The notes below the pieces were generated by a model, which did no database searches, was not told where the DNA came from, and saw only the letters and a program-made list of their open reading frames with translations. A stretch of DNA of 64,000 bases from Patescibacteria group bacterium (lineage in GTDB: Bacteria > Patescibacteriota > Minisyncoccia > UBA6257 > 2-01-FULL-56-20), in the NCBI GenBank assembly GCA_024654525.1, contig JANLHI010000032.1, positions 128,172 to 192,171 of the forward strand. Direction: 5' to 3'. A program made the position numbers and the translations under genes. The first letter of the stretch is position 1. Each line of letters starts with the position of its first letter. Shown here one piece after another: positions 4,233 through 43,541 of this stretch.

Positions 4233-5219
4233 ATGAAAAAAACGTTGGCGAATGTCTATATCTACTGCATCGCGCGGCTTTTTAAATGGGGGACGAGAAT
4301 TTTCGGGAGGAGGGGATTATACAAGGTGTGGCCTTTCGGAATGGTCTATGATTTGCTCTCCGGTGCTCTCCATGCGCATAAATGGCCCGAGGTTATTGAT
4401 GTTGATGGCCATGCTATATATGCACCCGAGGCGGAACGGTCTGTGGTGGCGATGTGGAAGGGAAGGGCGGACGAACTTGAATTCCGTTTGCTGGAACGGG
4501 AAATCCCGAAGGGAGGGACGGTAATCGATGTGGGGGCGAATATCGGGTATTACGCACTCATTCTTGCTCGCGCAGTGGGAAGTGAGGGGCGCGTGTTCGC
4601 ATTTGAGCCGGAAAAAGAGAATATTCGATTTTTAAAAAAAAATATTGAGGAAAATCATTATGGGAATGTGGAAATCGTTTCCGCTGCGGTGGGGGAGAAA
4701 AAAAGTTCCGTAATGTTATTTACATCAAATAGTAATCCTGGCGGGCATCAGATTTATGATTTTGCCGGACGTCTTAAAGAAAAAATAGCTCAAGGGAAGA
4801 ATCTTAATGAATCGGAAATACAAGCGTTGCATGAGCATGAAATGGAAATGCAACGCGGTTATGATGTGGACGTAGTGTCTCTTGATGAATATTTTAAAAA
4901 TTATACTCGCCCCATACATCTTATAAAGATTGATGTGGAAGGCGCCGAGGGGGGTGTGCTTGCGGGTATGCGGCACACCCTTCGGAAAAATCCGAATATC
5001 AAACTGTTTTTTGAATTTTGGCCGGTGGGTATGCGTACTTTCGGCAGTGATCCCCGTGCATTTCTCAATATTCTTGAAAATGAGGGATTTGATTTTTATG
5101 ATCTCAATAATTTCAAGCGATATAAGAACGAATCTGAAAAGATGGATGCTGCGGAACTTTTTAGTCGATACGAAAATTCGCAATCAACAAATGTGTTTGC
5201 GATAAAACACGAGCGTTAG
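4233..5219 (+). CDS. FkbM family methyltransferase (second copy)
   Basis: VIDVGANIGYYALILA...FAFEP...IHLIKIDVEGAEGGVLAGM is the FkbM signature. ATG at 4233; the track ORF begins at GTG 4221, which overlaps the GT4 stop. Confidence 0.6.
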   Translation: MKKTLANVYIYCIARLFKWGTRIFGRRGLYKVWPFGMVYDLLSGALHAHKWPEVIDVDGHAIYAPEAERSVVAMWKGRADELEFRLLEREIPKGGTVIDVGANIGYYALILARAVGSEGRVFAFEPEKENIRFLKKNIEENHYGNVEIVSAAVGEKKSSVMLFTSNSNPGGHQIYDFAGRLKEKIAQGKNLNESEIQALHEHEMEMQRGYDVDVVSLDEYFKNYTRPIHLIKIDVEGAEGGVLAGMRHTLRKNPNIKLFFEFWPVGMRTFGSDPRAFLNILENEGFDFYDLNNFKRYKNESEKMDAAELFSRYENSQSTNVFAIKHER

Positions 5220-5746
5220 ATGTAGCACCTTTTTTTCAGTATTTCCTTTATTTTTTTGAGGGATTGCATGGGGTTTTCGCGGTTGGTATGAAGTATGAGC
5301 TCGGGATTTTTCGGTTTCTCGTATATTGAGTGAATGCCGATGAAGTTTTTCATGGTGCCATTTTTCACGTTCCGGTAATGCCCTTTGGGGTCACGCCGCA
5401 TGCAGACCGAAACGGGACAGTCGCAAAAAATTTCTACAAAACGCGGAAATTTTTTTCTTGCCGTGGCGCGGACGCGTGCACTGGGGGATATGATGGAAAC
5501 GATAACGTTTTTGCCTTTTGTAAGATGAGATGTTACGAGCGAGCGTACCCTCCGATGATTTTTTCCAATGTCTCTTTTGCTAAAACCTAAATCTTGCGAA
5601 ATGGTTTTGCGTACTTCATCTCCGTCAACTATTACCGAAGGGATTCTTTTGCGCTGAAGAAAAGTATAGAGCTTTTTTGCAAGCGTGGTTTTTCCCGAGC
5701 CGGAAAGTCCAGTTAGCCACACCACAAAAGGAGGATCTTTCTGCAT
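5216..5746 (-). CDS. cysC: adenylylsulfate (APS) kinase
   Basis: VVWLTGLSGSGKTTLA P-loop with the APS-kinase-specific context. 176 aa, typical length. 4-nt overlap with the upstream gene in the operon. Confidence 0.85.
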   Translation of the reverse strand: MQKDPPFVVWLTGLSGSGKTTLAKKLYTFLQRKRIPSVIVDGDEVRKTISQDLGFSKRDIGKNHRRVRSLVTSHLTKGKNVIVSIISPSARVRATARKKFPRFVEIFCDCPVSVCMRRDPKGHYRNVKNGTMKNFIGIHSIYEKPKNPELILHTNRENPMQSLKKIKEILKKRCYI

Positions 5747-6829
5747 TTACAGATAGTTCAAATCTTGAAGGCGACCGATAACATCCGCAAGCGGAGCTTT
5801 TTCTTTATGATGTAGTATAAATTCTCCTTGCTGAATAAGTTTTTTGAGCGTCTTTACGATGAGCACCGGATTTTCCCCTATCGCGGTTTCCGATGAAAGT
5901 ACGAGTCCGTCCACGCCATCAAGCACCAAGTTGATAATATCGTTTGCTTCGCCGCGTGTCGGTTTATTCTTTTTAATCATAGATTCGAGAATGTGGGTTG
6001 CTACAAAGATTTCCATTCCGGCGCTTGCACATCGTTGCGTGATGAACTTTTGAATAAGAGGTATTTTTTCATAGCCTATTTCCGTTCCGAGGTCATTTCT
6101 GTCGATAAAGATTGCGTCGCTTGCTTTAATAAGCTCCTCAAGATTGCGCAATGCTTTTTCTGTTTCTATTTTAGAGGTTACGCGGATTTTTTTCTTTCCT
6201 ATAAATGTGCGTGCTTCTTGCACATCTTGTGCGTCATTTACGTACGACAACGAAACTTCCGAGATGCCGTAAGAAAGAGATTTTTTAATTGTTGCGCGAT
6301 CCATGTCTGTAAGCATTGATTTTGGCTCCATCTTTTTTTCGAGGCGTATGTTTTTAGGAACGCTTATTGTTCCGCCGGTTGTTACGATGTACGAGCGGAT
6401 TCCCTTACGAGTGTCGCGTTTTGTGTCGGGGGAGAGGACTATTTGATTGTCGTCCAAGAATATTTTTGATTTTTTAGGAATAAGCTCAAGAATCTCCAAG
6501 CGAGTGATCCAGAGAGATTTTTCTTTTACACGAATTCCGAATGGAACGATCGAAATACGCTCATTTTTTTTGAGTATAAGAGGCTTGCCGTCCGGAGCCA
6601 TAATCCTTGTTTCTTTTCCTTGAGTATCGATGATGATTGGAATCTTTTTCGAAATTGCGCGCATGCGTGCAAGGAGCTGTATCGCAAGAGGGAATGGGGT
6701 ATGGCTCAAATTGATACGCAAGGCATCCGCACCTGCGCGGATAAGCCCCCGCATTATTTTTTCAGATTGAGATGTGGGGCCAATAGTGCAAATGATTTGT
6801 ATGTGCGGTTTCTTTTTATATAGTTGCAT
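5747..6829 (-). CDS. pyruvate kinase family protein, A/B barrel domains only (no C-terminal domain)
   Basis: ICTIGPTS...LIRAGADALRINLSH, SKIETEKAL, FIDRNDLGTEIGYEKIP, ATHILESM, PTRGEANDIINLVLDGVDGLVLSSETAIG all match conserved pyruvate kinase motifs. At 360 aa it is too short to include the ~120-aa C-terminal allosteric domain. Confidence 0.6.
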   Translation of the reverse strand: MQLYKKKPHIQIICTIGPTSQSEKIMRGLIRAGADALRINLSHTPFPLAIQLLARMRAISKKIPIIIDTQGKETRIMAPDGKPLILKKNERISIVPFGIRVKEKSLWITRLEILELIPKKSKIFLDDNQIVLSPDTKRDTRKGIRSYIVTTGGTISVPKNIRLEKKMEPKSMLTDMDRATIKKSLSYGISEVSLSYVNDAQDVQEARTFIGKKKIRVTSKIETEKALRNLEELIKASDAIFIDRNDLGTEIGYEKIPLIQKFITQRCASAGMEIFVATHILESMIKKNKPTRGEANDIINLVLDGVDGLVLSSETAIGENPVLIVKTLKKLIQQGEFILHHKEKAPLADVIGRLQDLNYL

Positions 6830-6834
6830 TGATT

Positions 6835-8214
6835 TTATAATAAGGGTTTTCCGGGAAGATTTTTATGTTGCATTCCCAACGCTTTTAAAATGGTTGGTGC
6901 GATACGGAGTGCATCGACTGTTTCGATTTTTCCTTTTTCCTGCAGTAACGGCGATTTCATCACAAATACTCCTTCGGGAGAGTGTCCCGCATCATCAATA
7001 CCCACTGTGGTTTCTTGTGAATAAAGGCCGAAGTTTCCGATGTCGTTATTTACTCCATATCGCAAATTGTCGAAATATACAATAATGTCGGGAGCTTTCC
7101 CGTCTTTTTTCCGATATATGGTTTTGGTATCAAACACGCGGTTTTGAAGTTTTTCTCCACGTTCTCCCTTGATCGCGTTAAGCTTTTTTATAAGATATGA
7201 CTTCAATTTTACCTTTTCTTTTCCGAAGAGATATATTCTTCCCTGATATCCACCCGATGCAATTGCGCAAGTTTTTTTCCAATCAATTTCTTCGTGGCGG
7301 AGGCGTCGGGGAATTTCAAGCGGTGGGGATGTATTTTTTAAAATAAGAAGTTTTTCGCGACGGAGCCAATCATTTAAATTGATACGACATTCCATTCTAT
7401 CCATACCATGATCAGAAACAACGATGATGGTGGTGTGCTTGTCTATTTTTGATGAGGCGAGAAGCTTCCCTAATTCGCGATCTGTGTATTGATAATAATC
7501 ACGAATAACGTTTTTATATGGAGAGTTTTTCAGGTGGCGAGGATGATGTGGATCCATGTGGCGCCAGAACATATGATGAAGGCGATCGGTGCCAATGATA
7601 ACCATATTGAAGAGGTCCCAATCATAGTGTTTCATGCAGTATTGCGCAACGCGGAAATGTTGTGCGGACATGGTGTATGTTTTCTTGATGAGCATATCAA
7701 GGTCGAGTTTCTTATAGCCGGTGAATCCCGCAACGTCAAAAAGATATTCTTTTCCGCGCAGTAGTTTTGTGATTTTTGATTTCAGCGTGCGTGGATGAAC
7801 GCTGTGTTCGTCGAATGATGGAGTGAGAAAATCGGAAATCATGGCGCCATGAATAGGGCGCACGGGATAGGTGAGGGGAATATTAAGTGCAACCACAGTT
7901 TTCTTTTTTTTGTCGAGCATGTCCCAGAGCATGGGTACGCGGATGTTCTCCGAGGTGATAAGCGTATTCATTGATGCGGGACCGGGCGCCTCGGTGTAAC
8001 TATGCACGCCGGTTTCACTCGGGTCGCGTCCGGAATTGATGCTCGTCCACGCGACGATGGAAGTTGGAGGAATGGTGGTGCGCATGCGCGCATACATTCC
8101 CTCTTGCATGAGTCGGGCGATATTCGGTACATCTTTCTTATAGCGTCCGAAGACGAGCTCCGGCACCATGCCGTCCACGCCAAAAACGAACACTTTTTGC
8201 TTTGGTTTTTTCAT
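6835..8214 (-). CDS. alkaline phosphatase superfamily protein (nucleotide pyrophosphatase/phosphodiesterase-like)
   Basis: KVFVFGVDGMVPEL near the N-terminus (metal-ligand Asp, nucleophile-region pattern of NPP/type I phosphodiesterase family) and VVSDHGM (the conserved DHG metal-binding motif). Start moved to ATG 8214 (MKKPKQ), which leaves a 10-bp gap to the sat stop. Confidence 0.5.
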   Translation of the reverse strand: MKKPKQKVFVFGVDGMVPELVFGRYKKDVPNIARLMQEGMYARMRTTIPPTSIVAWTSINSGRDPSETGVHSYTEAPGPASMNTLITSENIRVPMLWDMLDKKKKTVVALNIPLTYPVRPIHGAMISDFLTPSFDEHSVHPRTLKSKITKLLRGKEYLFDVAGFTGYKKLDLDMLIKKTYTMSAQHFRVAQYCMKHYDWDLFNMVIIGTDRLHHMFWRHMDPHHPRHLKNSPYKNVIRDYYQYTDRELGKLLASSKIDKHTTIIVVSDHGMDRMECRINLNDWLRREKLLILKNTSPPLEIPRRLRHEEIDWKKTCAIASGGYQGRIYLFGKEKVKLKSYLIKKLNAIKGERGEKLQNRVFDTKTIYRKKDGKAPDIIVYFDNLRYGVNNDIGNFGLYSQETTVGIDDAGHSPEGVFVMKSPLLQEKGKIETVDALRIAPTILKALGMQHKNLPGKPLL

Positions 8215-8224
8215 AGGGTGGCGA

Positions 8225-9367
8225 CTACACAAATAAACTTTTTTCGCGAAGGAGAAGATTTACAATCTCCGGTCGCATCATTTCCTCCGGTGGATGACGT
8301 TTTGCAATAAGCGCTGCGCGCACTTTGGTGCCGCTTGGGCGTACGCGCTGATTCTCTCCGTGTAGGCATAAGTTTTCAAGTGTCATACCTTTGCAGTCAT
8401 GACAAAATAGCGCTTCTTTGAAGTGAAGAATAATAATGCCCATTTTTGCATTATATTTTGCAAGCGCTTTTTCATAGTCGCGTGGCGCGTAGTAATTTCC
8501 CACGCCAGTGTGATCGCGTCCGATAATAAAATGAGTGCAACCAAAGTTTTTCCGTAGCATTGCAGTGAGAAGCGCTTCGCGCGGTCCTGCATAGTAAGGA
8601 TTATGCTCTAATATACCGAGGAGTGATTTGCCACGAGGAAGAATGTGGCGAGAGAGATATGTATATGCTTTAAGCACCACTTCATTCCGGAAATCTCCGG
8701 ATTTTTTATATCCCACAAGAGGATTTACAAACACACCATCGGTAACTTTAAGCCCTTCACGTTGTACATGTTCGTGTCCGCGATGAGGTACATTTCGCGT
8801 GTGGAACCCCACAATTTTCTTCCAATTTTTTTTCACAAAAATCTCCCGTACTTTTTTTGGAGAGAGATTATAATGTGCAAATTCTCCGCGATCGTCGTGG
8901 AGAAGTATGATATTTCCCGCGATAAGATATTCCTTGCGCGAGAATATTTTTTTTACACCGGGATGTTTCATGTCTGTCGTTTTAAAAATTTGCTTACAGA
9001 AGGAGGTTTTCTTGAAAAGATAAATCTCTTTAACATCCATTACTGCGATTTTTTTTCCGTTTCCCGCGACGAGGAAAACACGCCGCGCATCTTTGATTTT
9101 TTTCCTTTCGGCAAAAGAAATATCCAGGATTATTGGGATAGGCCAGAATATTCCGTTTGTAAGATGCCACGAACTAAGAATGGAATTTACCTCTTTCTTA
9201 CCGAGAAATCCCGTGAGGGGGCTGTATACGCCGTGTGCGATATTGCGCACCTCGATAAAACGTTCTTCCGAGATGTGAAGTTCGGGGAGAGCGAGCTTAA
9301 GAAGGCACGCTCGTTGTCGCGGTGTCGCTATGCGATTAATAAGTTTTCCGCCAAGAGGGTTATTCAT
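8225..9367 (-). CDS. sat: sulfate adenylyltransferase (ATP sulfurylase)
   Basis: GFHTRNVPHRGHEHVQ (the QTRN/HxxH motif) and HFIIGRDHTGVGNYY (GRDHAG motif). 380 aa is typical for the bacterial/archaeal homo-oligomeric form. Confidence 0.8.
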   Translation of the reverse strand: MNNPLGGKLINRIATPRQRACLLKLALPELHISEERFIEVRNIAHGVYSPLTGFLGKKEVNSILSSWHLTNGIFWPIPIILDISFAERKKIKDARRVFLVAGNGKKIAVMDVKEIYLFKKTSFCKQIFKTTDMKHPGVKKIFSRKEYLIAGNIILLHDDRGEFAHYNLSPKKVREIFVKKNWKKIVGFHTRNVPHRGHEHVQREGLKVTDGVFVNPLVGYKKSGDFRNEVVLKAYTYLSRHILPRGKSLLGILEHNPYYAGPREALLTAMLRKNFGCTHFIIGRDHTGVGNYYAPRDYEKALAKYNAKMGIIILHFKEALFCHDCKGMTLENLCLHGENQRVRPSGTKVRAALIAKRHPPEEMMRPEIVNLLLREKSLFV

Positions 9368-9659
9368 TGTTAAGTGGGATGACCTCTTTTGTTTTACTCT
9401 CTGTGCGCCAGATTTTTACATAGACAACCATGGTCGCGGTAAGAAAAATAAGCGCAAGACCGTACTTTATCTGAAGAGGATTTTGATGAATTAAGAGTGC
9501 ATATATAAGTGCAACAATGTTTGCAATGAGAGATATGAAAAGGAGGAGGAAACTCAATCCCTCAACAGTTTTTGTTTGATGCGTTTTTATCATCTGCGGG
9601 ATATAGCAGATACTGAAAAGCACAGTGGCAGTCCATCCGAAAATAGCCGAAAGTTCCAT
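9360..9659 (-). CDS. PQ-loop repeat membrane protein (SemiSWEET-like, 3 TM)
   Basis: 99 aa with three hydrophobic segments. The first contains the PQ motif (ICYIPQMIKTHQTKTVEGLS). The stop overlaps the sat start by 8 nt. Confidence 0.45.
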   Translation of the reverse strand: MELSAIFGWTATVLFSICYIPQMIKTHQTKTVEGLSFLLLFISLIANIVALIYALLIHQNPLQIKYGLALIFLTATMVVYVKIWRTESKTKEVIPLNNE

Positions 9660-9668
9660 GACGATGGT

Positions 9669-9884
9669 CTAGAGATAGCCGAGTTTTTTCAGTCGTTCCC
9701 TTATTTTCGTTTCTTCGGCGAGAAGATGACCATCTCCTTTCTCGAGGAGAAGTTCGCGAAGAATGAAAGAAACGAAGGAGGATGCAGATGTGAATCCGGT
9801 TCCTTGTATCATTTTTTGCACTCGCTCATGGAGTGGGCGGGGGATGGATATGGTGGTGTAATCAGTGCGCTTTTTTTGAGCCAT
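9669..9884 (-). CDS. ribbon-helix-helix (CopG/Arc-like) DNA-binding protein, putative operon regulator
   Basis: 71 aa. The N-terminal YTTISIPRPLHERVQKMI is the beta-strand-helix pattern of RHH proteins. It is the first gene of the minus-strand sat/cysC operon, 10 bp from the next gene. Weak call. Confidence 0.35.
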   Translation of the reverse strand: MAQKKRTDYTTISIPRPLHERVQKMIQGTGFTSASSFVSFILRELLLEKGDGHLLAEETKIRERLKKLGYL

Positions 9885-9962
9885 ACATGTAATTATGGGT
9901 AATTACATATAGGTGTCAAGAGGTGATATTCACAAGCTCATTTTTTGTGATACTATCCGGTT

Positions 9963-10103
9963 ATGGCAAAAAAAGTGGAAAAAAAGAAAAATAAGGGGAA
10001 AAAAGAGGGAAGTATTGCTGACGTGAAAGAAAAAAAATCAGAGAAGCGCGAGAAGGAGCGCGAGAAGGTGATGGATCAACTTAAAGCGTTGGGGTATATT
10101 TAA
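9963..10103 (+). CDS. small Lys/Glu-rich hypothetical protein (46 aa)
   Basis: ATG 9963 to TAA 10101-10103: MAKKVEKKKNKGKKEGSIADVKEKKSEKREKEREKVMDQLKALGYI. Low complexity. Its C-terminal LKALGYI resembles the RHH protein C-terminus LKKLGYL. Could be non-coding. Confidence 0.2.
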   Translation: MAKKVEKKKNKGKKEGSIADVKEKKSEKREKEREKVMDQLKALGYI

Positions 10104-10122: not shown

Positions 10123-11502
10123 ATGGGGAAAAGTATGTATAATAAAAAACCTTCAGTGGTTTTTATTACTATTGATGCATTACGCATTGATGAGTTGGGG
10201 GTTTTCGGCTATCAGCGTCCTACGAGTCCTTTTCTCGACCAATTTACGGCGGAGGGAATTAATTTTAAGAATCATTTTTCCAACAGTTCGCAGTCGCCTC
10301 CCGGTTTCTTTTCGATGTTTGCGTCGCAGTATCCTTCGGCGCGGAATGATTGGACAACAACTGATGGAAACTTCGAATTTATAAGTGAAGTGTTTCAGAA
10401 GAATGGATATTATACTGCGGGATTCGCTACCGCGCCCTACATTTCTAATTTTTTTGGATATGATCGCGGATTCGATGAATTTTTTCAAATGGGGCCTGTT
10501 GAGGAAATCGATCCGGTAAAGCGCGCGGCACTTTCGGCATTGCCGAAGGGTTGGATTGCACCGCTCAAATCATTCATCAAGAATACAATAATCGGCAAGA
10601 TATTAAACCGCGTGCGGTACGCTTTCCTTCCTCAGCATGCCTATGCGGGTGCGGAGGCGGTAAATAAAAAGATTTTGGGTTTTCTCGAATCCTATCAAGG
10701 CACGAAACCTCTTTTTCTCTGGATTCATTACATGGATGTCCATAATCCATTTCTTCCCGCGCAAGAGGATATGAAAGCGGTAGGGGGAACGCTAAGTTGT
10801 TTTCGTATTGCGCGTCTTAACCGGAAACATCTCCAGCTTACGCGCTTCGATCCTTTCGAGGATGTGCTTCATATGACGCATCGTGAGCTTAGCGATTTGC
10901 GTATTTGCTATGATGCAAAACTTCGATATCTTGATAACAAGATTAAAGAACTTTTTGCAATGTTTGCGAATCATGGACTTGGCAAAGAGCATACAATTAC
11001 CGCAATCACCGCTGATCACGGAGAAGCATTCGGAGAACATTTCGGGATAGGACATACCGAACGACTTTATGATGAATTGCTCCATGTACCGTTTATTATT
11101 CGAGTACCGGAGTATCCGGCGAGGGATATAGTGTCGCTCACAAATGCGGTGGATATTCTTCCTACGCTTGCGGGGCTTGCGGGAGTGTCGTACCGCAAGA
11201 ATCGCGTTCGGGGAATGAATGTTTTAGACGAGACATTTGTAAATCGGGAATATGTAGTGAGTCATGTTGCGCCGAATGTAGGAGGTATGCTTGCGAATGT
11301 GGATTTTGCACGAAGCACTTTTGCGGTGCGCACAGACACGTGGAAATTCATAAAAGATTTCGGAAGAAAGAGAGAGGAGCTTTATAACCTTGCGGATGAT
11401 CCTCTGGAGTTAAAAAATATCGCTTCCGAAAATAACCCAATACGCGAGGAGTTAAGTCGAGTTCTTGATTCTCATATTGCCGAGTGTAACGCGATTCGAT
11501 AA
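10123..11502 (+). CDS. sulfatase-family (alkaline phosphatase superfamily) protein with non-canonical active-site motif
   Basis: The N-terminal VVFITIDALRIDELG and the C-terminal ITADHGEAFGEHFGIGH are classic sulfatase-fold motifs. At the position of the C/S-x-P-x-R formylglycine motif the sequence is S-P-P-G-F, so Arg is replaced by Phe. Confidence 0.55.
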   Translation: MGKSMYNKKPSVVFITIDALRIDELGVFGYQRPTSPFLDQFTAEGINFKNHFSNSSQSPPGFFSMFASQYPSARNDWTTTDGNFEFISEVFQKNGYYTAGFATAPYISNFFGYDRGFDEFFQMGPVEEIDPVKRAALSALPKGWIAPLKSFIKNTIIGKILNRVRYAFLPQHAYAGAEAVNKKILGFLESYQGTKPLFLWIHYMDVHNPFLPAQEDMKAVGGTLSCFRIARLNRKHLQLTRFDPFEDVLHMTHRELSDLRICYDAKLRYLDNKIKELFAMFANHGLGKEHTITAITADHGEAFGEHFGIGHTERLYDELLHVPFIIRVPEYPARDIVSLTNAVDILPTLAGLAGVSYRKNRVRGMNVLDETFVNREYVVSHVAPNVGGMLANVDFARSTFAVRTDTWKFIKDFGRKREELYNLADDPLELKNIASENNPIREELSRVLDSHIAECNAIR

Positions 11503-15517: not shown

Positions 15518-15748
15518 CGTCAACTCTTTTTAGAGGGGGCTTGGTTATATTGAAATCCCCACGATAGGACGCTATAGTTCCCATGCGTATATTTAAGTGG
15601 TTCCCTGTGGTAATTTTCATATTTTCACATGCTTCAATACACCGAGAGCAATGCAAAGTTTTTTTTGAAACGAAGCGTGAGTGCTATGCGTTCGATAGCG
15701 CTTGGTTTTTTTAGCGTTCCTGTTACAAAAGAAGGGTGGGAGGATAGG

Positions 15749-17977
15749 ATGTTAATTTCAAATCTTGAGGGTTTGGGGGATCTTATAATGTTTACTTCCG
15801 TTCTCAAACATTATAAAAAGCGTTTTCCCACAAAAAAGATTTATCTTCTTGTAAAACAAGGATTTGGCGTTGAGAATTTTTTTCGAGAGTATTACGTTGA
15901 TGAAGTAATTGCGCTTAATTATAGGCGATTTTCCATTAATCCTTGGTATGGTTTTCAGGTGATAAGGCGTTTGCGTCGTATCGGGTTTCATACCGTAGTG
16001 AATCATGATTTTAGTGCGGCGGAGATTATGGGAAAGATAATCTCTGTTTCGCTCGGAGCGAAAGAAGTTATCGGGTACGAAGGACAGATTATAGAGTTCG
16101 AGAAGCCGTATGATATTCAACAGGAAAAGCATTTAAAAAAAATCCGGAAAAAGATTCTCCCTCGGTATACGCGCATAATTCCGCCTATTCCGCAGGATAT
16201 CGGGAAGTACGGCCGAATACCCAGTGAGATTGAATATTATATCGCAATCTACGAGGCAGTAACCGGGGTTTGTGAGTCCGATTATGCACCGATGCTTCCA
16301 CGACCGAGTGATGCCATGATAGAATCAGTAGTCAAAAAATTTGATATCCCGAATATTCCCTATGTTGTGTTTAATGTGAATTCAAGCGTGTCGTGTAAAA
16401 TATGGCCATTTCACAATTTTGCGGAGGTAGCCGGTTATCTTGATAAAAAAGGGTATGCAGTGGTGTTGGTGGGTTCAAAGAAAGAATTCTTGCGTACACA
16501 AAAATTTAATTCTTGCACAAATGTTTTTTGTATCAATACTTCGGGAAAGACTTCGTTTGAAGAGTTACTTGCGCTTATCGCGGGATGTGCTTTTGTGTTC
16601 GGAAATGACACCTCTACCATTCATTTTGCGGTGGCCTTACAACGTCCTTCTCTTTGTGTTGTCGGAGGAGGGCAATTTGGTGTTGCGGTGAATTATGGGT
16701 ATCGAGATATGAATGTGTGGGCGTATGAGAAAACTTATTGTTATTTTGATAACTGGCGGTGCAGTAGGGGAGTAGCACATAACGATCCCTCTCCGTGTGT
16801 GGTTGCGATATCCGTTTCGCAAGTTCTCCAAAAACTCAATGGGATACTTGCATATAATGGCCGTCATTCGTGTGTATTTTCAGCGAATTTTGAAAAAGAT
16901 GCATATCAATCAATTTCACATAAAAAGGAAAAAATAAAGATTATTTATTCCGGAATTCAAGCGGAGAATTACAATCCCGCCCGGAAGATGAGTTTCGAAT
17001 ACTCCAATTTTTATAACACCCTGAAGGATCTTCCGAATGTTGAGGTGATTGAGTATCCGTATGATCCGATTATTGAAATAGGAAAAAAGAGATTTAATGA
17101 AAAATTACTGGACCTTGTGCGCCGCGAAAAGCCGGATTTATTTTTTGCGTTTATGTTCACGGATGAGCTTGATGTAGAAATGCTTGATGAGATAAAGGGA
17201 ATTACCACAAGTGTTGCATGGTTTGCGGACGACCATTGGCGGTTGTGGAATTATTCGCATCGCTACGCGTGGCATTTCTCATGGGTGGTGACAACATGGT
17301 CAAAGGCACCCGAGATATATCGCCGCTACGGCATTACGAATGTAATTCGCTCGCAGTGGGCGTGTAATCCGCACGCATGGAAACCTGTTGACATTGAGCG
17401 AGATATAGATGTGGCGTTTGTGGGACAATGGAATCCTTCGCGGGCGCACATTGTAGAACAACTCCGGAAAGCGGGTATTAACGTGTGGACTCGCGGGTGG
17501 GGATGGCCCGAAGGGCGTCTTTCTCACGAGGAAATGGTAAAGAGCCTTTCGCGGGCGAAAATAAATTTAAACTTCAACGTGCCGCCGTCCCATTGGAACC
17601 CAAAAATGCTTGCGCGGCTCCTTTTGCGGCGTTCGGTGGGGAGAATAGTTCCGGATGTGTTGAACCTCAAGGGGAATATTGAGTCGTGGTTTCACATGCC
17701 AATTCCCCAAATTAAAGCCCGCCCGTTTGAGATTCTCGCGTGTCGCACGTTTCTTATTTCCGGATATGCGGACGATATGGAAAATTATTACGAAAATAAG
17801 AAAGAAATTGTGTATTACAATGGACAGTTGGATGATCTTATCGGGAAAATTCGCTATTACCTTGCACATGATGACGAGCGAGAGAATATTGCGCACGCGG
17901 CGTACGAGAGAACGTTGCGTGAACATACGTACGAGAAACGTTTCCGGGAGATTTTTAAAAAAATTGGCTTAACATAA
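15749..17977 (+). CDS. bifunctional glycosyltransferase: N-terminal GT9 heptosyltransferase domain fused to C-terminal CgeB-like (DUF3880/Glyco_trans_1_2) domain
   Basis: The N-terminal part has MLISNLEGLGDLIMFTSVLKHYKKRFP and NTSGKTSFEELLALIAGCAFVFGNDTSTIHFAVAL, the GT9 (RfaF/RfaC-like) patterns. The C-terminal ~350 aa (VAWFADDHW...VAFVGQW...ARPFEILACRTFLISGY...YYNGQLDDLIGKIRYYLAHDDERENIAHAAYERTLREHTYEKRF) matches CgeB-family glycosyltransferases. Start set to ATG 15749, which is preceded by GGAGG. Confidence 0.55.
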   Translation: MLISNLEGLGDLIMFTSVLKHYKKRFPTKKIYLLVKQGFGVENFFREYYVDEVIALNYRRFSINPWYGFQVIRRLRRIGFHTVVNHDFSAAEIMGKIISVSLGAKEVIGYEGQIIEFEKPYDIQQEKHLKKIRKKILPRYTRIIPPIPQDIGKYGRIPSEIEYYIAIYEAVTGVCESDYAPMLPRPSDAMIESVVKKFDIPNIPYVVFNVNSSVSCKIWPFHNFAEVAGYLDKKGYAVVLVGSKKEFLRTQKFNSCTNVFCINTSGKTSFEELLALIAGCAFVFGNDTSTIHFAVALQRPSLCVVGGGQFGVAVNYGYRDMNVWAYEKTYCYFDNWRCSRGVAHNDPSPCVVAISVSQVLQKLNGILAYNGRHSCVFSANFEKDAYQSISHKKEKIKIIYSGIQAENYNPARKMSFEYSNFYNTLKDLPNVEVIEYPYDPIIEIGKKRFNEKLLDLVRREKPDLFFAFMFTDELDVEMLDEIKGITTSVAWFADDHWRLWNYSHRYAWHFSWVVTTWSKAPEIYRRYGITNVIRSQWACNPHAWKPVDIERDIDVAFVGQWNPSRAHIVEQLRKAGINVWTRGWGWPEGRLSHEEMVKSLSRAKINLNFNVPPSHWNPKMLARLLLRRSVGRIVPDVLNLKGNIESWFHMPIPQIKARPFEILACRTFLISGYADDMENYYENKKEIVYYNGQLDDLIGKIRYYLAHDDERENIAHAAYERTLREHTYEKRFREIFKKIGLT

Positions 17978-37476: not shown

Positions 37477-37830
37477 TCATTTCTCCTCCCGTACGGAGGA
37501 GTTTTGCTTTATAAGTTGATTATGCCACCCGCCGAGCATCCGTCCCGCTTCCGCAAGCGGTGCGGATAATGCAATATATTTCTTTTCGTCGAGGGCATGG
37601 ATTTCCCACGCGAGCAAAAGGAGGCACTTTCCCGTATCAAGCGCCGTGATTGCATGCTTTACTTCTGGTAGCTTTTCCGTCTTTGGGAGAAAGCAGGCGG
37701 TTACCGTATGCTCGATTGTGGCGATGAGAAGCGCGTCAATCCGCGCGGCAAGCGTGTAACGCGAAGCTTTCGGTATGTGCGGTAGATACTCATGCCAAAG
37801 CTTGTATGCGGAAGTAATTTTGTGAAGCAC
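37477..37830 (-). CDS. Avd-like accessory variability determinant (four-helix-bundle protein), opposite strand
   Basis: 117 aa, basic, predicted all-helical. ...RYTLAARIDALLIATIEHTVTAC...KHAITALDTGKCLLLLAWEIHALDEKKYIALSAPLAEAGRMLGGWHNQL resembles the four-helix-bundle (PF05635/TIGR02436) family to which DGR Avd proteins belong. Sits between TR and RT. Confidence 0.5.
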   Translation of the reverse strand: MLHKITSAYKLWHEYLPHIPKASRYTLAARIDALLIATIEHTVTACFLPKTEKLPEVKHAITALDTGKCLLLLAWEIHALDEKKYIALSAPLAEAGRMLGGWHNQLIKQNSSVREEK

Positions 37831-37868
37831 GATTGGACTCCGTGGGGGGGGGGCTTATAAAGAATCAT

Positions 37869-38915
37869 ATGTTTGAACAGATTATTGCAGTCGAAAACTT
37901 GCTCGCGGCGTGGAAAGAATTTTTGCGCGGCAAACGGACGAAACCCGATATGCAGGAATTCTCCTTGATGCTAATGGACAATATCCTAGCTCTTCACGAG
38001 AAACTACGCAACGGCACCTATCGCCACGGGGAGTACAAACATTTCCGCATTACCGACCCTAAGCCACGTGACATTCACAAAGCCACCGTCCGGGACCGGT
38101 TGCTCCACCACGCTATCCATAGGGTGCTCTATCCCTTTTTCGACCGCACATTCATCGCCGACTCGTTCTCATGCAGGAATGGAAAAGGGACGCATCGCGC
38201 GATGAACCGTTTCCGCATGTTTGCCTATCAAGCGAGCAGGAATCACACTCGCACGTGCTGGGTGCTGAAGTGCGATATCCGCAAATTCTTCGCTTCAGTT
38301 GACCACCATATGCTCATGGAAATTCTCCGTTCCCGGATAACAGATAAAAAGACTCTTTGGTTACTCGGGGACATTGTGGGAAGTTTTTCAAACACAAAAA
38401 TCCCTCGGTTCGCGAACTCGCCACTCCCTTCCCTCTTTCGTTCGCAAGCTTCGGTGGGCTCAGTACGAACGGGAGAACCAGGAGGAATAGGGCTTCCGCT
38501 CGGAAACCTCACGTCCCAGCTTCTCGTGAATGTTTACATGAATGAGTTTGACCAGTTTGTGAAACATCGCTTGCGAGTAAAGTATTACGTCCGTTATGCG
38601 GACGATTTTATAATTATGTCCCAAAATAAGATGTGGCTCGAAACTATCTTGCCAGAAATGGAATCTTTTCTTTGGGGTTGGCTGAAACTTCGCCTGCATC
38701 CCGGCAAGGTGTCCGTTTCCACGATCGCCTCGGGCGTGGATTTCCTCGGCTGGGTGCATTTCCCAAGCCATCGCGTGCTACGAACGGCGACGAAAAAGAG
38801 AATGATGAAAAGAATCTTTGCGCATCCCACGAGCGAAACCTTCGAATCTTATAAAAGCCTTTTATCTCATGGCAACGCATTCGGATTGGAGAAAAAATTT
38901 ATATCAAGCTCTTGA
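37869..38915 (+). CDS. DGR-type reverse transcriptase
   Basis: RT domains are present: RITDPKPRDIHKATVRDRLLHHAI (1-2), SFSCRNGKGTHRA (3), GLPLGNLTSQLLVNVYMNEFD (4, with the DGR-specific [I/L]GxxxSQ motif replacing the group II QGxxxSP), YVRYADDFII (5, YxDD) and LRLHPGKVSV...VDFLGW (6-7). The track ORF starts at TTG 37833. ATG 37869 is preferred; a G10 run lies between them. Confidence 0.8.
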   Translation: MFEQIIAVENLLAAWKEFLRGKRTKPDMQEFSLMLMDNILALHEKLRNGTYRHGEYKHFRITDPKPRDIHKATVRDRLLHHAIHRVLYPFFDRTFIADSFSCRNGKGTHRAMNRFRMFAYQASRNHTRTCWVLKCDIRKFFASVDHHMLMEILRSRITDKKTLWLLGDIVGSFSNTKIPRFANSPLPSLFRSQASVGSVRTGEPGGIGLPLGNLTSQLLVNVYMNEFDQFVKHRLRVKYYVRYADDFIIMSQNKMWLETILPEMESFLWGWLKLRLHPGKVSVSTIASGVDFLGWVHFPSHRVLRTATKKRMMKRIFAHPTSETFESYKSLLSHGNAFGLEKKFISSS

Positions 38916-41843: not shown

Positions 41844-43541
41844 ATGAATTTCCAAGAAAACCTTGACGCATACACGCCGGATTTTACTCCATATGACTGG
41901 ACTCCGGAGGATAGGGATCTTTTAGCTCCTTTCGTTACCAATCTCGACGGACTTGTAACGGTGTTGCGCAATTTACCTCCTGAAATTGCGGGAGCGCTTT
42001 GTTCACGAGCAAGCCGTGCGACAAAATCGCTCGTGGAGGTGCTTCTGAAAGAATATCTCCATCCCATTTTGCAAGGTGAAGACAAAAAGCTTGCCGAGGA
42101 ATTGAAGGAAACCATCTCGTTTCTTCGCAATCATGGGTTTAAGAATATTTTGAACAATCAGCGGGCGCAGGCGTTTTATGCAAAATGGCTTTCTCAATAT
42201 GGAGATGATTCAATCGCCCAGCTTACCGGTACGCATGTGGTGTTGTGGGGCATCTCACAAGTTGCGTTGAAATTTGTGGAGGACCAGCGCATAGGAATTG
42301 AACCGCTTGAAAAGTCCACGCGTTATGTGAGTTACGGGAATAAAGTGGGAGGGCGATATTTATATTACATTCCGAAGCCCGATCTTGAACGGCTGGGGAT
42401 GATGAAAGAGTATGCGGAGACGCTCGATAATCTTTTTGATACGTACGGACGTCTTCTTCCCGAGTTGATTGTGTGGCTCAGGGAAAATTATGAAGAGAAA
42501 GAATCGATCCTTGAAAAAAAGGCATTCGACACGCTTCGCGGATTGCTCCCTATGGCGACATTGTCGCAAGTGGCATTTCGGGGGAATGCACAGGCATTGG
42601 AGTATCTTATCAGTCGTATGGCGCGGTATCCTCTGGGAGAATTTCGGTGGCTTTCCTCCGCGCTCAAAACAGAACTCGATAAAGAAATTCCTTCGCTCCT
42701 CTTGCGGCTTGGTGATGAGAGGTCACAGGAATACCAGCATTATTTGAGCGAGCGTTACGGTGCGGTAAGGAGTTTTGTAAAAAAAGAATTGCACGAAACA
42801 TACAAAGATGCGTTTTTCCGTGCAGGAACAAAACCGGAGGTACAACTTGTCGAATATGACCCGGATGCGGAAATAAAAATCCTCGCCGGCATCCTTTTCA
42901 AAGAAGCGCATGGCGGGTGGGATGAGGCGTTGCAAGTGGTAAAAAGCATGAATCAAGAAGCCAAGCGCGAGTTATTCAAGCGATATCTCTTGAACCGGAC
43001 TGCGCGTTGGTGGAAAACGGGAAGAGCATTTGAGAATTCTTATCTTCGCTTTGAGATTGTTATGGATGCGGGTGCATATAGGGATCTTCAGCGTCATCGC
43101 ATGCTTACACAAGAGCGTCAACGTTTTTCCGCGCATCATGGGTATAATGTACCGAAGGAGCTGATAGAGTCAGGGCTTGCGCCACGATTTGAAAAGGCGC
43201 TTGTGAAGGCGGGGGAGTTGTTTGCGACGCTTGAGGCGCATGATGCGGAGCTTGCGCAATATGTGGTGCCGATGGCGTACCGTATGCGTTTTTATCAGTG
43301 GCAGAATTTCCGTTCTTTTTTTTGGGAGACGGAGTTGCGTACCATTTCACAAGGACATCCGGATTATCGTTATATTGAACATGAGAAATATCGCCTCGTA
43401 AAAGAAAAATTTCCGCTTCTTGCGGAATTTATGCTGGTGGATACGAACGCCTATTCAATTGCCCGTCGTGGTACTGAAGAGAGGATTGCGAAAAAAGAGA
43501 AAGAGATAATCGAAAAACTGGGAAAGAGGAGCGCTCAGTAA
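41844..43541 (+). CDS. thyX: FAD-dependent thymidylate synthase ThyX-like, tandem (pseudo-dimeric) form
   Basis: The C-terminal half has FEIVMDAGAYRDLQRHRMLTQERQRFS (RHR motif region) and VPMAYRMRFYQWQNFRSFFWETELR (compare ThyX vP.a.rt.f...N.Rsl.hf..LR). The N-terminal half has a degenerate second copy (LTGTHVVLWGISQVALKFVEDQRIGIEPLEKSTRYVSY). 565 aa against ~220-250 for a single-domain ThyX. Confidence 0.5.
   Translation: MNFQENLDAYTPDFTPYDWTPEDRDLLAPFVTNLDGLVTVLRNLPPEIAGALCSRASRATKSLVEVLLKEYLHPILQGEDKKLAEELKETISFLRNHGFKNILNNQRAQAFYAKWLSQYGDDSIAQLTGTHVVLWGISQVALKFVEDQRIGIEPLEKSTRYVSYGNKVGGRYLYYIPKPDLERLGMMKEYAETLDNLFDTYGRLLPELIVWLRENYEEKESILEKKAFDTLRGLLPMATLSQVAFRGNAQALEYLISRMARYPLGEFRWLSSALKTELDKEIPSLLLRLGDERSQEYQHYLSERYGAVRSFVKKELHETYKDAFFRAGTKPEVQLVEYDPDAEIKILAGILFKEAHGGWDEALQVVKSMNQEAKRELFKRYLLNRTARWWKTGRAFENSYLRFEIVMDAGAYRDLQRHRMLTQERQRFSAHHGYNVPKELIESGLAPRFEKALVKAGELFATLEAHDAELAQYVVPMAYRMRFYQWQNFRSFFWETELRTISQGHPDYRYIEHEKYRLVKEKFPLLAEFMLVDTNAYSIARRGTEERIAKKEKEIIEKLGKRSAQ

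What the first reader, a model, noticed from the sequence alone, without database searches (positions are those of the whole stretch)
5216..9884. PAPS-synthesis operon with unusual partners, embedded in the glycan locus; no recognisable sulfotransferase
Six minus-strand genes with gaps or overlaps of 10 nt or less form an operon: RHH regulator, PQ-loop membrane protein, ATP sulfurylase, AlkP/NPP-like enzyme, truncated pyruvate-kinase paralog, APS kinase. sat plus cysC make PAPS, which in a surface-glycan locus implies a sulfated glycan or a sulfated tailoring step. Yet no PAPS-dependent sulfotransferase (5'-PSB/3'-PB motifs) is recognisable in the 64 kb. Candidate non-canonical players are the two AlkP-superfamily proteins (6835-8214 and 10123-11502). 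Alternatively the sulfotransferase lies outside the window.
Basis: partly seen in the sequence, partly recalled or inferred. Interest (0 to 1): 0.7.

Follow-up and report, generated by a model that had tools for sequence, protein, structure and literature searches.

The report
Sulfation module using alkaline-phosphatase-fold enzymes
A candidate-phyla-radiation bacterium carries a compact gene set for activated sulfate (PAPS) inside a surface-sugar locus, and the missing sulfate-transferring step is probably done by two alkaline-phosphatase-fold enzymes, tied to their partners by a short C-terminal peptide motif that I did not find described.

Summary
Six tightly packed minus-strand genes (5216-9884) encode APS kinase, a pyruvate kinase lacking its C-domain, an NPP-like AlkP-superfamily enzyme (NPPL), ATP sulfurylase, a PQ-loop protein and a small weakly RHH-like protein. 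They sit in a heptose-glycan locus of a Patescibacteria MAG. None of about 66 window proteins scanned hits a sulfotransferase Pfam family.

New evidence:
- NPPL lies next to Sat or APS kinase in 15 of 81 related loci across bacteria and archaea.
- NPPL is fused to them as Sat-NPPL, NPPL-APSK, APSK-NPPL, NPPL-PK and NPPL-PK-Sat.
- The divergent sulfatase-like gene (10123-11502) belongs to a sulfatase-fold subfamily without the formylglycine motif. Haloarchaeal members lie in AglB N-glycosylation clusters. Sulfatase-fold AlkP proteins (Agl30/Agl31) were shown in 2025 to be archaeal glycan sulfotransferases.
- A C-terminal tail (~RLxxLGY[LI]) ends the truncated PK, the RHH-like protein and an unannotated 46-aa ORF (9963-10103). 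Elsewhere it ends APS kinases, a CysH-like protein, NPPL paralogues and haloarchaeal AlkP-like proteins.

Best reading: a PAPS-making, PEP-driven sulfation module whose transferases are AlkP-fold enzymes. Whether NPPL is a sulfotransferase or a PPi/pAp hydrolase is unresolved.

The parts
5216..5746 (-). APS kinase (CysC), 176 aa
   Evidence: PF01583 3.5e-46; TIGR00455 168.8 bits, cut-off 138.7. P-loop GLSGSGKTT read directly from the translation.
5747..6829 (-). Pyruvate kinase A+B domains only (PKL), 360 aa. The C-terminal allosteric domain is replaced by a tail ending ...VIGRLQDLNYL.
   Evidence: PF00224 2.6e-62, below the full-length PK cut-offs. Alignment to PKM2 keeps the catalytic residues. 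The tail is conserved in all PKL homologues. PKL is fused to Sat in L014 and to NPPL in P0350 and P0353.
5750..5788 (-). C-terminal tail motif of PKL (ADVIGRLQDLNYL)
6835..8214 (-). NPPL: NPP-like alkaline-phosphatase-superfamily enzyme, 459 aa. It has a full two-metal site and a Ser52 nucleophile.
   Evidence: PF01663 7.9e-34. Invariant D14, D210/H214, D268/H269, D407/H411 and a Ser/Thr at position 52. AF2 model pLDDT 93; nearest folds are ENPP1/3 and Xac NPP at TM 0.54-0.61. Adjacent or fused to Sat/APSK in many lineages.
8225..9367 (-). ATP sulfurylase (Sat), 380 aa
   Evidence: PUA_2 1.9e-45 plus ATP-sulfurylase 1.9e-71; NF003166 418 bits, cut-off 387.
9360..9659 (-). PQ-loop / SemiSWEET-like 3-TM membrane protein, 99 aa; substrate unknown
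   Evidence: PF04193 4.1e-16; SemiSWEET_2 34 bits, below cut-off 80. Conserved at the same position in L007 (72% identity) and next to an NPPL paralogue in L027.
9669..9884 (-). 71-aa protein: RHH-like N-terminal part plus tail (...EETKIRERLKKLGYL)
   Evidence: RHH_1 E=0.081, sub-threshold. The family profile weakly hits the NikR RHH domain (E=0.29) and Arc (E=1.2). Counterparts were found in 32 loci, usually directly upstream of NPPL.
9887..9908 (.). Perfect palindrome ATGTAATTA-tggg-TAATTACAT overlapping the best promoter-like site (TTGACA-16-CATAAT, minus strand 9919-9892); candidate operator
   Evidence: The overall count of promoter-like sites is not above chance; only the position is suggestive.
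9963..10103 (+). Unannotated 46-aa Lys-rich ORF ending in the tail (...KVMDQLKALGYI), 19 nt upstream of the sulfatase-like gene
   Evidence: Translation. A homologous 42-aa gene was called at the same position in Liptonbacteria (L003 2362-2490). The tail HMM scores it at 5.5e-7.
10123..11502 (+). Sulfatase-fold AlkP-superfamily protein without the formylglycine motif (S-P-P-G-F instead of C/S-x-P-x-R); candidate Agl31-like glycan sulfotransferase

Best explanation
The locus encodes a self-contained glycan-sulfation module with no classical sulfotransferase.

Shown by homology: Sat makes APS and APS kinase makes PAPS.

Inferred:
1. The C-domain-less pyruvate kinase regenerates ATP from PEP at the site of sulfate activation.
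2. Sulfuryl transfer to the heptose-containing glycan is done by alkaline-phosphatase-superfamily enzymes that use a Ser/Thr nucleophile and a two-metal site.
3. One such enzyme is the formylglycine-less sulfatase-fold protein (10123-11502), analogous to Halobacterium Agl30/Agl31.
4. Most likely NPPL is another. NPPL has a nucleotide-pyrophosphatase fold and is the gene most tightly coupled to Sat and APS kinase in evolution. It would take the sulfuryl group from APS or PAPS onto Ser52 and pass it on.
5. The components are held together or co-regulated through a shared C-terminal tail (~RLxxL[G/N/H]Y[L/I]). The tail is present on PKL, on the RHH-like protein and on a 46-aa peptide here. In other lineages it is on APS kinase, a CysH-like protein, NPPL paralogues and sulfatase-like proteins. 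It probably docks onto the AlkP-fold enzymes.
6. The RHH-like protein probably autoregulates the divergent promoter region through the palindrome at 9887-9908.
7. The role of the PQ-loop protein is unknown; sulfate or sugar transport is possible.
For: Domain identities. No sulfotransferase family hit in the window proteins scanned.

The same six-gene order occurs in a Saccharibacteria MAG (L007). Sat-NPPL-PK plus a sulfatase-like gene occur in Liptonbacteria (L001). NPPL-PK-Sat-APSK occurs in a Diapherotrites archaeon (L004).

Sat or APSK lies within 10 kb of NPPL, mostly adjacent, in 15 of 81 distinct loci: CPR, DPANN, Thaumarchaeota, Nitrospinota, Actinomycetes, Anaerolineae, Hydrogenedentales, Verrucomicrobia and Omnitrophota. 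These loci fall in 10 of 19 NPPL clusters at 55% identity.

Fusions: Sat-NPPL (L053, P0375), NPPL-APSK (L068, and L082 by tblastn), APSK-NPPL-tail (P0393), PK-Sat (L014), NPPL-PK-tail (P0350) and NPPL-PK-Sat (P0353).

Neighbours of NPPL are glycan genes (GT1/GT4, epimerases, DegT, Wzx, methyltransferases). No Sulfotransfer family appears among the 25 most frequent families in 285 neighbours.

NPPL keeps all metal ligands and the nucleophile. PKL keeps the PK catalytic residues.

The sulfatase-like protein lacks C/S-x-P-x-R. Its haloarchaeal relative lies between GTs beside AglB.

Experimental precedent for sulfatase-fold sulfotransferases: PMC11980604.

Tail motif.

In L018 a PHP-APS kinase fusion sits between two NPPL copies. 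If PHP is the pAp phosphatase there, NPPL need not be.
Against: No biochemical data exist for NPPL, for this sulfatase-like subfamily or for the tail.

The PAPS + PK + pyrophosphatase recipe used in vitro (PMC9885120) fits NPPL equally well as a pyrophosphatase. Sat-NPPL and NPPL-PK-Sat fusions are also what a PPi-removing partner would give.

Most NPPL loci (66 of 81) have no Sat or APSK within 10 kb.

Direct sequence comparison with Agl30/Agl31 was not possible. Those authors did not identify the sulfate donor.

Haloarchaeal AglB clusters carry tail-bearing AlkP-like proteins but no type-1 NPPL in the 20 kb seen, so NPPL cannot be the universal tail receptor.

The other ~129 kb of the contig was not inspected for a canonical sulfotransferase.
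Confidence: 0.5

Rival explanations
1. Optimised PAPS factory with one transferase. NPPL is an accessory hydrolase, either a pyrophosphatase that pulls the unfavourable Sat reaction or a pAp 3'-phosphatase that removes the inhibitory product. PK regenerates ATP. The sulfatase-like protein, or an enzyme elsewhere, is the only sulfotransferase.
For: The operon composition mirrors the in-vitro PAPS cascade of PAPS synthase + PK/PEP + pyrophosphatase (PMC9885120). The Sat-NPPL and NPPL-PK-Sat fusions fit a PPi-removing partner. In DPANN, NPPL is also fused to a putative nucleotidyltransferase, another PPi-releasing enzyme. No cysQ-like or ppa-like gene was seen in the window.
Against: NPP-fold enzymes are diesterases and nucleotide pyrophosphatases, and the closest folds are ENPP1/3 and Xac NPP. 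By my manual alignment, the Asn that contacts the transferred phosphoryl group in NPP is Tyr/Phe in NPPL, and no invariant Lys or Arg other than R211 is present; this is an inference. NPPL often has a second, divergent PF01663 paralogue in the same locus (29 loci), and it sits in glycan loci without Sat. That looks like an acceptor-specific tailoring enzyme rather than a housekeeping hydrolase. APSK-NPPL fusions without Sat are less natural for a pyrophosphatase. PHP, a candidate pAp phosphatase, co-occurs with NPPL.
Confidence: 0.3
2. Ordinary explanation. A canonical PAPS-dependent sulfotransferase lies elsewhere in the genome. The two AlkP-superfamily proteins do unrelated chemistry on the glycan, such as phosphodiester substituent transfer or trimming, or desulfation.
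Against: The fusions of NPPL with Sat, APSK and PK tie it to sulfate activation. No Sulfotransfer family appears among the frequent neighbour families in 81 related loci, and a motif regex found no convincing candidate. The sulfatase-like protein cannot form formylglycine, so a hydrolytic sulfatase role is unlikely.
Confidence: 0.12
3. The operon feeds sulfite or sulfide formation (assimilation, or a sulfonated sugar such as sulfoquinovose) rather than O-sulfation.
For: In Saccharibacteria L009 the NPPL-PK pair is followed by a PAPS_reduct (CysH-like) protein that carries the tail. SDR 'Epimerase' genes, the family of UDP-sulfoquinovose synthase, flank the window operon.
Against: No PAPS_reduct or sulfite reductase hit was found in the window. 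The operon is embedded in a glycan locus and paired with a sulfatase-fold enzyme. L009 also continues into a Wzx-like flippase gene.
Confidence: 0.05

Closest known systems
Agl30 (VNG1056C) and Agl31 (VNG1057C), N-glycan sulfotransferases of Halobacterium salinarum (Zaretsky et al. 2025, PMC11980604)
   Same: They are alkaline-phosphatase-superfamily, sulfatase-fold proteins encoded inside a glycan-assembly cluster, and they replace classical sulfotransferases. Agl31 is soluble, as the window's 455/459-aa protein appears to be. The two PDB structures reported as closest to them (5G2U, 6HHM) rank 6 and 8 for the window protein's model. Haloarchaeal members of the window protein's subfamily lie in AglB clusters.
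   Different: Direct sequence relatedness could not be tested. The window protein is bacterial (CPR) and lacks the C-terminal tail that its haloarchaeal relatives carry; a separate 46-aa peptide carries it. It sits beside a complete Sat/APS-kinase operon, whereas the sulfate donor of Agl30/31 was not addressed. NPPL (PF01663) is a different AlkP family from Agl30/31.
Bifunctional PAPS synthase (Sat-APS kinase fusion), and enzymatic PAPS-generation cascades with PK/PEP and pyrophosphatase
   Same: Sat and APS kinase act consecutively. Pyruvate kinase removes ADP and regenerates ATP (PMC9885120). Fusion of consecutive enzymes is seen here too, for example the L077 Sat-APSK fusion.
   Different: Here PK is a dedicated, C-domain-less paralogue encoded in the operon and in places fused to Sat or NPPL. 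An NPP-fold enzyme sits where a pyrophosphatase would be in the cascade, if it is one at all.
Nucleotide pyrophosphatase/phosphodiesterases (Xac NPP, ENPP1/3; PF01663)
   Same: Same fold (Foldseek E about 1e-18, TM 0.54-0.61). Same two-metal site and the same Ser/Thr nucleophile position.
   Different: Only 12-14% identity. The motif after the nucleophile is x-x-A-W instead of F-P-N-H. There is an extra beta-rich insertion at about residues 270-400. NPPL appears to be cytoplasmic. Its genomic coupling is to sulfate activation and glycan genes.
Type I (formylglycine) sulfatases, S1 family
   Different: The C/S-x-P-x-R maturation motif is absent. A Ser/Thr sits at the nucleophile position and Phe replaces Arg throughout the subfamily. 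No maturase was identified in the window, and no signal peptide was evident to me (not tested with a predictor).
Classical PAPS-dependent sulfotransferases (Sulfotransfer_1/2/3, Stf0, NodH)
   Same: The presumed overall reaction: PAPS + glycan-OH gives glycan-O-SO3 + pAp.
   Different: No such domain occurs in the window or among the frequent neighbour families of related loci. The proposed mechanism is ping-pong through a covalent sulfo-Ser/Thr on a metallo-enzyme, not direct in-line transfer.

Membership tests
Classical PAPS-dependent sulfotransferases (Pfam Sulfotransfer_1/2/3/4, Sulphotransf, Gal-3-O_sulfotr) and aryl-sulfate sulfotransferase | Match to a family HMM, or the 5'-PSB / 3'-PB motifs | tested here: not met
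   About 66 window proteins were scanned against Pfam and none hit. A regex for the PSB/PB motifs on 1,229 ORFs of related loci gave no convincing candidate.
ATP sulfurylase (Sat) | PUA_2 plus ATP-sulfurylase domains above curated cut-offs | tested here: met
   NF003166 418.3 bits, cut-off 387; TIGR00339 327.9 bits, cut-off 322.95.
APS kinase (CysC) | PF01583 / TIGR00455 above cut-off; P-loop | tested here: met
   TIGR00455 168.8 bits, cut-off 138.7. GLSGSGKTT is present in the translation.
Pyruvate kinase | Catalytic A/B-domain residues: the R/N/S K+ site, the Lys-Glu of SKIE, the Asp of xDLG, and the Thr of ATxxLESM | tested here: met
   Alignment to PKM2. These residues are invariant in seven PKL sequences.
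Pyruvate kinase | C-terminal alpha/beta (allosteric and tetramer) domain; full-length equivalog score | tested here: not met
   The 360-aa protein ends after the barrel. TIGR01064 258.8 bits, below cut-off 306.4; the match covers profile positions 4-344 of 476. A 13-aa tail replaces the C-domain.
NPP / type I phosphodiesterase (PF01663), AlkP superfamily | Domain match, two-metal ligands and a Ser/Thr nucleophile | tested here: met
   118.2 bits, cut-off 23. D14, S/T52, D210, H214, D268, H269, D407 and H411 are invariant. Fold match to NPPs.
NPP / type I phosphodiesterase (PF01663), AlkP superfamily | Phosphoryl-contacting Asn (N111 of Xac NPP) and the aromatic nucleotide sandwich after the nucleophile | tested here: inconclusive
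   My manual alignment places Tyr73 at the Asn position and Ile53 at the Phe position. No structural superposition was available.
Formylglycine-dependent (S1) sulfatases | C/S-x-P-x-R motif for formylglycine maturation | tested here: not met
   The window protein has S-P-P-G-F. The subfamily consensus is [ST]-[PR]-x-[SGA]-F with an invariant Phe.
Formylglycine-dependent (S1) sulfatases | Sulfatase fold and PF00884 match | tested here: met
Agl30/Agl31-type sulfatase-fold sulfotransferases | AlkP-superfamily sulfatase-like protein encoded in a glycan-assembly cluster | tested here: met
   Haloarchaeal subfamily members lie beside AglB.
Agl30/Agl31-type sulfatase-fold sulfotransferases | Sequence relatedness to Q9HQQ2 / Q9HQQ3 | not testable with these tools
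   The sequences could not be obtained. The afdb50 library was unavailable. Halobacterium was not among the 120 hits listed.
Agl30/Agl31-type sulfatase-fold sulfotransferases | Sulfotransferase activity on a glycan | not testable with these tools
   Needs genetics or biochemistry.
Ribbon-helix-helix (CopG/Arc/MetJ) regulators | RHH_1 HMM match above cut-off | tested here: inconclusive
   13.4 bits, cut-off 20.5, E=0.081. The family profile gave NikR RHH E=0.29 and Arc E=1.2. A palindrome overlaps the promoter-like site.
PQ-loop / SemiSWEET | PQ-loop repeat; SemiSWEET subfamily score | tested here: inconclusive
   PF04193 58.9 bits is met. NF037968 SemiSWEET_2 34.1 bits is below cut-off 80.

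The most novel reading that the evidence does not exclude
NPPL founds a previously unrecognised class of sulfonucleotide-dependent sulfuryl transferases with an NPP fold. It is widespread: 1,370 clusters at 50% identity score E<=1e-30. Together with formylglycine-less sulfatase-fold enzymes it forms a 'sulfation metabolon' in CPR bacteria, DPANN, Thaumarchaeota, Verrucomicrobia and haloarchaea. The metabolon would be assembled through a shared C-terminal RLxxLGY tail. In the boldest version, the invariant tail tyrosine is itself a sulfuryl (aryl-sulfate) carrier between the PAPS-side enzyme and the sulfatase-fold transferases.
Probability: 0.3. Interest if true: 0.85.

Novelty: new variant of a known kind. 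Interest (0 to 1): 0.72.

Why it matters
Sulfated surface glycans are known in archaea and some bacteria. In many of these organisms no sulfotransferase can be found by homology. The only experimental lead (Agl30/Agl31, 2025) left the sulfate donor and the reach of the family open.

This locus and its relatives link AlkP-fold enzymes physically to Sat, APS kinase and a dedicated pyruvate kinase, through operons and gene fusions. They extend the idea to bacteria with minimal genomes. They nominate a second, much larger AlkP family (NPPL). They also reveal a shared peptide tail that could be a handle for finding further components.

All of this can be tested directly with a few recombinant proteins. 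If confirmed, thousands of proteins now annotated 'alkaline phosphatase family protein' or 'sulfatase' would need new names.

Tried and rejected
- Fetching the window's own contig to look beyond the 64 kb failed. The exact products are not in the index.
- An alignment of 28 NPPL homologues was too diverse for the locus scan. A narrower one worked.
- The metagenome scan with PKL returned one 1.6-kb contig and told nothing.
- The afdb50 fold library was unavailable, so I could not look for Q9HQQ2/Q9HQQ3 among structural neighbours. A homologue search from the Halorubrum relative listed only hits of at least 51% identity and no Halobacterium protein.
- I followed Hfx. volcanii Agl7 (HVO_2046, 'contributes to sulfation') as a lead. 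Its family is not stated in the accessible text, and the supplement is not held.
- Literature searches for 'COG3379', for AlkP superfamily + sulfotransferase + PAPS, and for the tail sequence found nothing relevant.
- Sequence searches of the RHH-like protein and of the DPANN partners X1 and X3 against PDB and Pfam gave no significant hit. My reading of X1/X2 as Pol-beta-type nucleotidyltransferases (NTP_transf_2 E=0.022) and of X3 as HIT-like is therefore only a lead.
- L069 looked like a Sat-NPPL fusion in my ORF calling. Pfam shows only the NPPL domain in that ORF, so the two genes are adjacent, not fused.
- Single-linkage clustering of neighbours was spoiled by the fusion proteins.
- I considered the tail as a proteasome-type HbYX motif or a membrane anchor. 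I rejected both: the Tyr position varies relative to the C-terminus, and the helix is highly charged.

Full report
**1. What is in the window**

Mechanical ORF listing gives six minus-strand ORFs:
- 5216-5746
- 5747-6829
- 6835-8232. The ATG at 8214 gives the 459-aa product that NCBI annotates, and P0001 is 100% identical to it.
- 8225-9367
- 9360-9659
- 9669-9884

Spacings are 0, 5, 10, -8 and 9 nt. The source is a Patescibacteria (CPR) MAG contig of 193 kb.

Pfam and NCBIfam identify them as follows:
- APS kinase: TIGR00455 168.8 bits, cut-off 138.7.
- Pyruvate kinase barrel without the C-domain: PF00224 2.6e-62; TIGR01064 258.8 bits, below 306.4.
- A PF01663 'Phosphodiest' AlkP-superfamily protein, here called NPPL: 7.9e-34.
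- ATP sulfurylase: NF003166 418 bits, above 387.
- A PQ-loop protein.
- A 71-aa protein with no significant family. At E<=1 it hits RHH_1 with 13.4 bits. A family profile weakly finds the NikR RHH domain and Arc.

Divergently, 10123-11502 encodes a PF00884 sulfatase-family protein.

The surroundings, about 350-33600, form a glycan locus. It holds the ADP-heptose pathway genes, GT2/GT4/GT9, Wzy, Wzx, an initiating Bac_transf, methyltransferases and a B12-radical-SAM enzyme.

I scanned about 66 window proteins against Pfam and none matched a sulfotransferase family.

**2. The module is conserved, and NPPL is its core**

- A Saccharibacteria MAG (L007) has the same six genes in the same order.
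- A Liptonbacteria MAG (L001) has small protein-Sat-NPPL-PK, with the sulfatase-like gene divergent.
- A Diapherotrites archaeon (L004) has NPPL-PK-Sat-APSK beside a GT4.

I fetched 80 genomic loci with NPPL relatives and searched them with the window proteins. Sat and/or APS kinase lie within 10 kb of NPPL, mostly directly adjacent, in 15 of 81 distinct loci. These come from CPR, DPANN, Thaumarchaeota, Nitrospinota, Actinomycetes, Anaerolineae, Hydrogenedentales, Verrucomicrobia and Omnitrophota. A rough chance expectation for one or two genes per genome is 1-2 loci. The linked loci fall in 10 of 19 NPPL sequence clusters at 55% identity, so the link is not a single inherited accident.

Gene fusions confirm it:
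- L053: PUA_2 + ATP-sulfurylase + Phosphodiest in one 923-aa ORF.
- L068: Phosphodiest + APS_kinase. L082 has an ORF of the same length with the same tblastn pattern.
- L014: PK + Sat.
- L077: Sat + APSK (all four by Pfam).
- In an unbiased library of 1.84 billion representatives: NPPL-PK-Sat (P0353, 1151 aa), NPPL-PK (P0350), Sat-NPPL (P0375) and APSK-NPPL (P0393).

The family is large: 1,370 50%-identity clusters at E<=1e-30.

**3. What NPPL looks like**

All AlkP-superfamily metal ligands are invariant (D14, D210/H214, D268/H269, D407/H411). So is a Ser/Thr at position 52, in the motif P-[PA]-x-[ST]-x-x-A-W. An AlphaFold model (pLDDT 93) is closest to ENPP1/3 and Xanthomonas NPP (TM 0.54-0.61, 12-14% identity). 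NPPL is therefore built to bind a nucleotide-linked group and to form a covalent intermediate.

Its neighbours in 285 sampled genes are glycosyltransferases, sugar epimerases and dehydratases, aminotransferases, flippases and methyltransferases. PHP phosphoesterases recur in DPANN. No sulfotransferase family is among the 25 most frequent families. Twenty-nine loci carry more than one PF01663 gene, nearly always a distant paralogue (NPPL2).

**4. The sulfatase-like protein**

Alignment to solved sulfatases puts a Ser at the formylglycine position. The maturation motif C/S-x-P-x-R reads S-P-P-G-F. The same holds for the whole subfamily, which includes CPR, Chloroflexi, Asgard and many haloarchaea. 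There the motif is [ST]-[PR]-x-[SGA]-F with an invariant Phe in place of Arg. The protein cannot become a formylglycine sulfatase, and it keeps a Ser/Thr nucleophile like the transferases of the superfamily.

This connects to the only experimental precedent I found. Halobacterium salinarum Agl30 and Agl31 are AlkP-superfamily, sulfatase-like proteins. Deletion and transfer into Haloferax showed that they are the N-glycan sulfotransferases (PMC11980604). The PDB entries those authors report as closest (5G2U, 6HHM) rank 6 and 8 for the window protein's model. I could not compare sequences directly.

**5. An unexpected shared tail**

The 71-aa protein ends in ...IRERLKKLGYL. An unannotated 46-aa Lys-rich ORF at 9963-10103, 19 nt upstream of the sulfatase-like gene, ends in ...VMDQLKALGYI. 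A 42-aa homologue is called at the same place in Liptonbacteria. The truncated pyruvate kinase ends in ...VIGRLQDLNYL, as do all its homologues. In the L014 PK-Sat fusion the motif sits in the linker.

The same motif ends:
- the RHH-like proteins, which usually lie directly upstream of NPPL (32 loci);
- NPPL2 paralogues (11 loci);
- APS kinases of L062 and L063;
- the CysH-like protein of L009;
- the haloarchaeal sulfatase-like proteins;
- two small proteins in the Halorubrum AglB cluster that have no Pfam hit but look like minimal AlkP cores by eye;
- 25 of 150 NPPL-family representatives.

Only 72 of 25,687 ORFs in the material carry it. The tyrosine is invariant.

One pattern stands out. 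An AlkP-fold enzyme either carries the tail itself or has a small tail-bearing gene immediately upstream. Sulfate-activation enzymes carry it in some lineages. This points to a docking peptide that binds AlkP-fold enzymes, but nothing was tested.

**6. Mechanism**

Shown by homology: sulfate + ATP gives APS (Sat), and APS + ATP gives PAPS (APS kinase).

Inferred: PKL keeps every catalytic residue of pyruvate kinase and most simply regenerates ATP from PEP and the ADP that APS kinase releases. This is the trick used in enzymatic PAPS synthesis (PMC9885120).

Also inferred: the sulfatase-fold protein transfers sulfate to the glycan through a sulfo-Ser intermediate.

For NPPL I favour a sulfuryl-transferase role using APS or PAPS, for four reasons:
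- It is fused to both Sat and APS kinase.
- It occurs as acceptor-specific-looking paralogues in glycan loci.
- It co-occurs with a separate candidate pAp phosphatase (the PHP-APSK fusion in L018).
- By my manual alignment it lacks the Asn and the cationic residues that stabilise a phosphoryl group.

The main rival is a pyrophosphatase or pAp phosphatase that makes the operon an optimised PAPS factory. The NPPL-PK-Sat fusion fits that rival as well. I put the two at roughly 0.45 versus 0.3-0.35 for NPPL itself.

The palindrome ATGTAATTA-tggg-TAATTACAT (9887-9908) overlaps the best promoter-like site. It is a plausible operator for the RHH-like protein.

**7. Comparison and novelty**

The Sat and APS kinase genes are ordinary. 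Sulfatase-fold sulfotransferases have been a known kind since 2025. To my knowledge and in the searches run, four things are not described:
- the coupling of AlkP-fold enzymes to a PAPS operon;
- the NPP-fold family NPPL as the conserved partner, including the fusions;
- the dedicated C-domain-less pyruvate kinase;
- the shared tail.

I rate it a new variant of a known kind. It could become a new class of sulfotransferase if NPPL is shown to transfer sulfate.

**8. Limits**

- Everything about function beyond Sat, APS kinase and PK chemistry is inference from context.
- ORFs in related loci were called by my own simple script.
- Some MAG taxonomic labels (for example 'Methanosarcinales' or 'Gammaproteobacteria' bins that carry DPANN-type operons) may be wrong.
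- The rest of the contig was not seen.

Noticed in passing
window 37477-38915: Divergent pair of a bAvd-like gene (37477-37830, minus; 37.7 bits, just under the Pfam cut-off of 40) and a reverse transcriptase (37833-38915, plus; RVT_1 4.7e-24). This looks like a diversity-generating retroelement core. The template and variable repeats were not searched for.
   Followed up: no
window 9963-10103 (+): Unannotated 46-aa Lys-rich ORF with the RLxxLGY-type tail in the divergent intergenic region. It is conserved in Liptonbacteria.
   Followed up: yes
L010-L013, L017-L021, L024-L028, L030, L032-L035, L039 (DPANN loci): Conserved operon: RHH-tail protein - NPPL - X1 (~366 aa) - X2 (~370 aa, a paralogue of X1) - X3 (~198 aa), often followed by a PHP phosphoesterase. 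X1 is fused to NPPL in L025-27 and L030, and X2-X3 are fused in L021, L025 and L027. No significant Pfam or PDB match. By eye, X1/X2 carry a Pol-beta nucleotidyltransferase motif (NTP_transf_2 E=0.022) and X3 a CxxC plus H-I-H-I-K histidine-triad-like motif.
   Followed up: partly
L018 14155-15564: PHP domain fused to APS kinase (469 aa), flanked by two type-1 NPPL genes. PHP may be a pAp phosphatase.
   Followed up: partly
L088 7951-8904 (-) and 12487-13407 (+) (Halorubrum AglB cluster): Two proteins of 317 and 306 aa have no Pfam hit on record. By eye they are minimal AlkP-superfamily cores (LDACR, VTSDHGN, YGHP) and end in the tail motif. With the 451-aa sulfatase-like protein, that makes three tail-bearing AlkP-like proteins beside AglB.
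   Followed up: partly
L068 7226-8512, L082 11952-13241 (Thaumarchaeota): The NPPL-APS kinase fusion is followed by two small proteins. One has a PIG-L/LmbE-type deacetylase motif (HPDD), and a distant NPPL paralogue lies nearby. This recalls deacetylation followed by sulfation.
   Followed up: no
L009 4196-4930: A PAPS_reduct (CysH-like) protein carrying the tail follows NPPL-PK in a Saccharibacteria contig, ahead of a Wzx-like gene.
   Followed up: partly
window 15629-17977: 782-aa protein that combines a GT9 heptosyltransferase domain with a C-terminal Glyco_trans_1_2 domain.
   Followed up: no
window 59531-61522: 663-aa protein with an Ice_binding-like domain (5.2e-60) plus SpaA-like and DUF7507 domains, probably a surface protein.
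   Followed up: no
window 41844-43541 and 43712-44179: ThyX domain within a 565-aa protein that has a ~330-aa N-terminal extension without a Pfam hit, followed by a 23S-rRNA-intervening-sequence protein gene.
   Followed up: no
window 9892-9919 (minus strand): The -10 hexamer of the best promoter-like site ends 7 nt before the ATG of the RHH-like gene (9884). The operon mRNA may therefore be leaderless.
   Followed up: no
L091 211-4057 (cyanobacterium Chroogloeocystis): A 512-aa Sulfatase/Phosphodiest protein, an LGT-like membrane protein and NPPL lie in a row. This is again a pair of AlkP-fold enzymes, here without Sat or APSK nearby.
   Followed up: no
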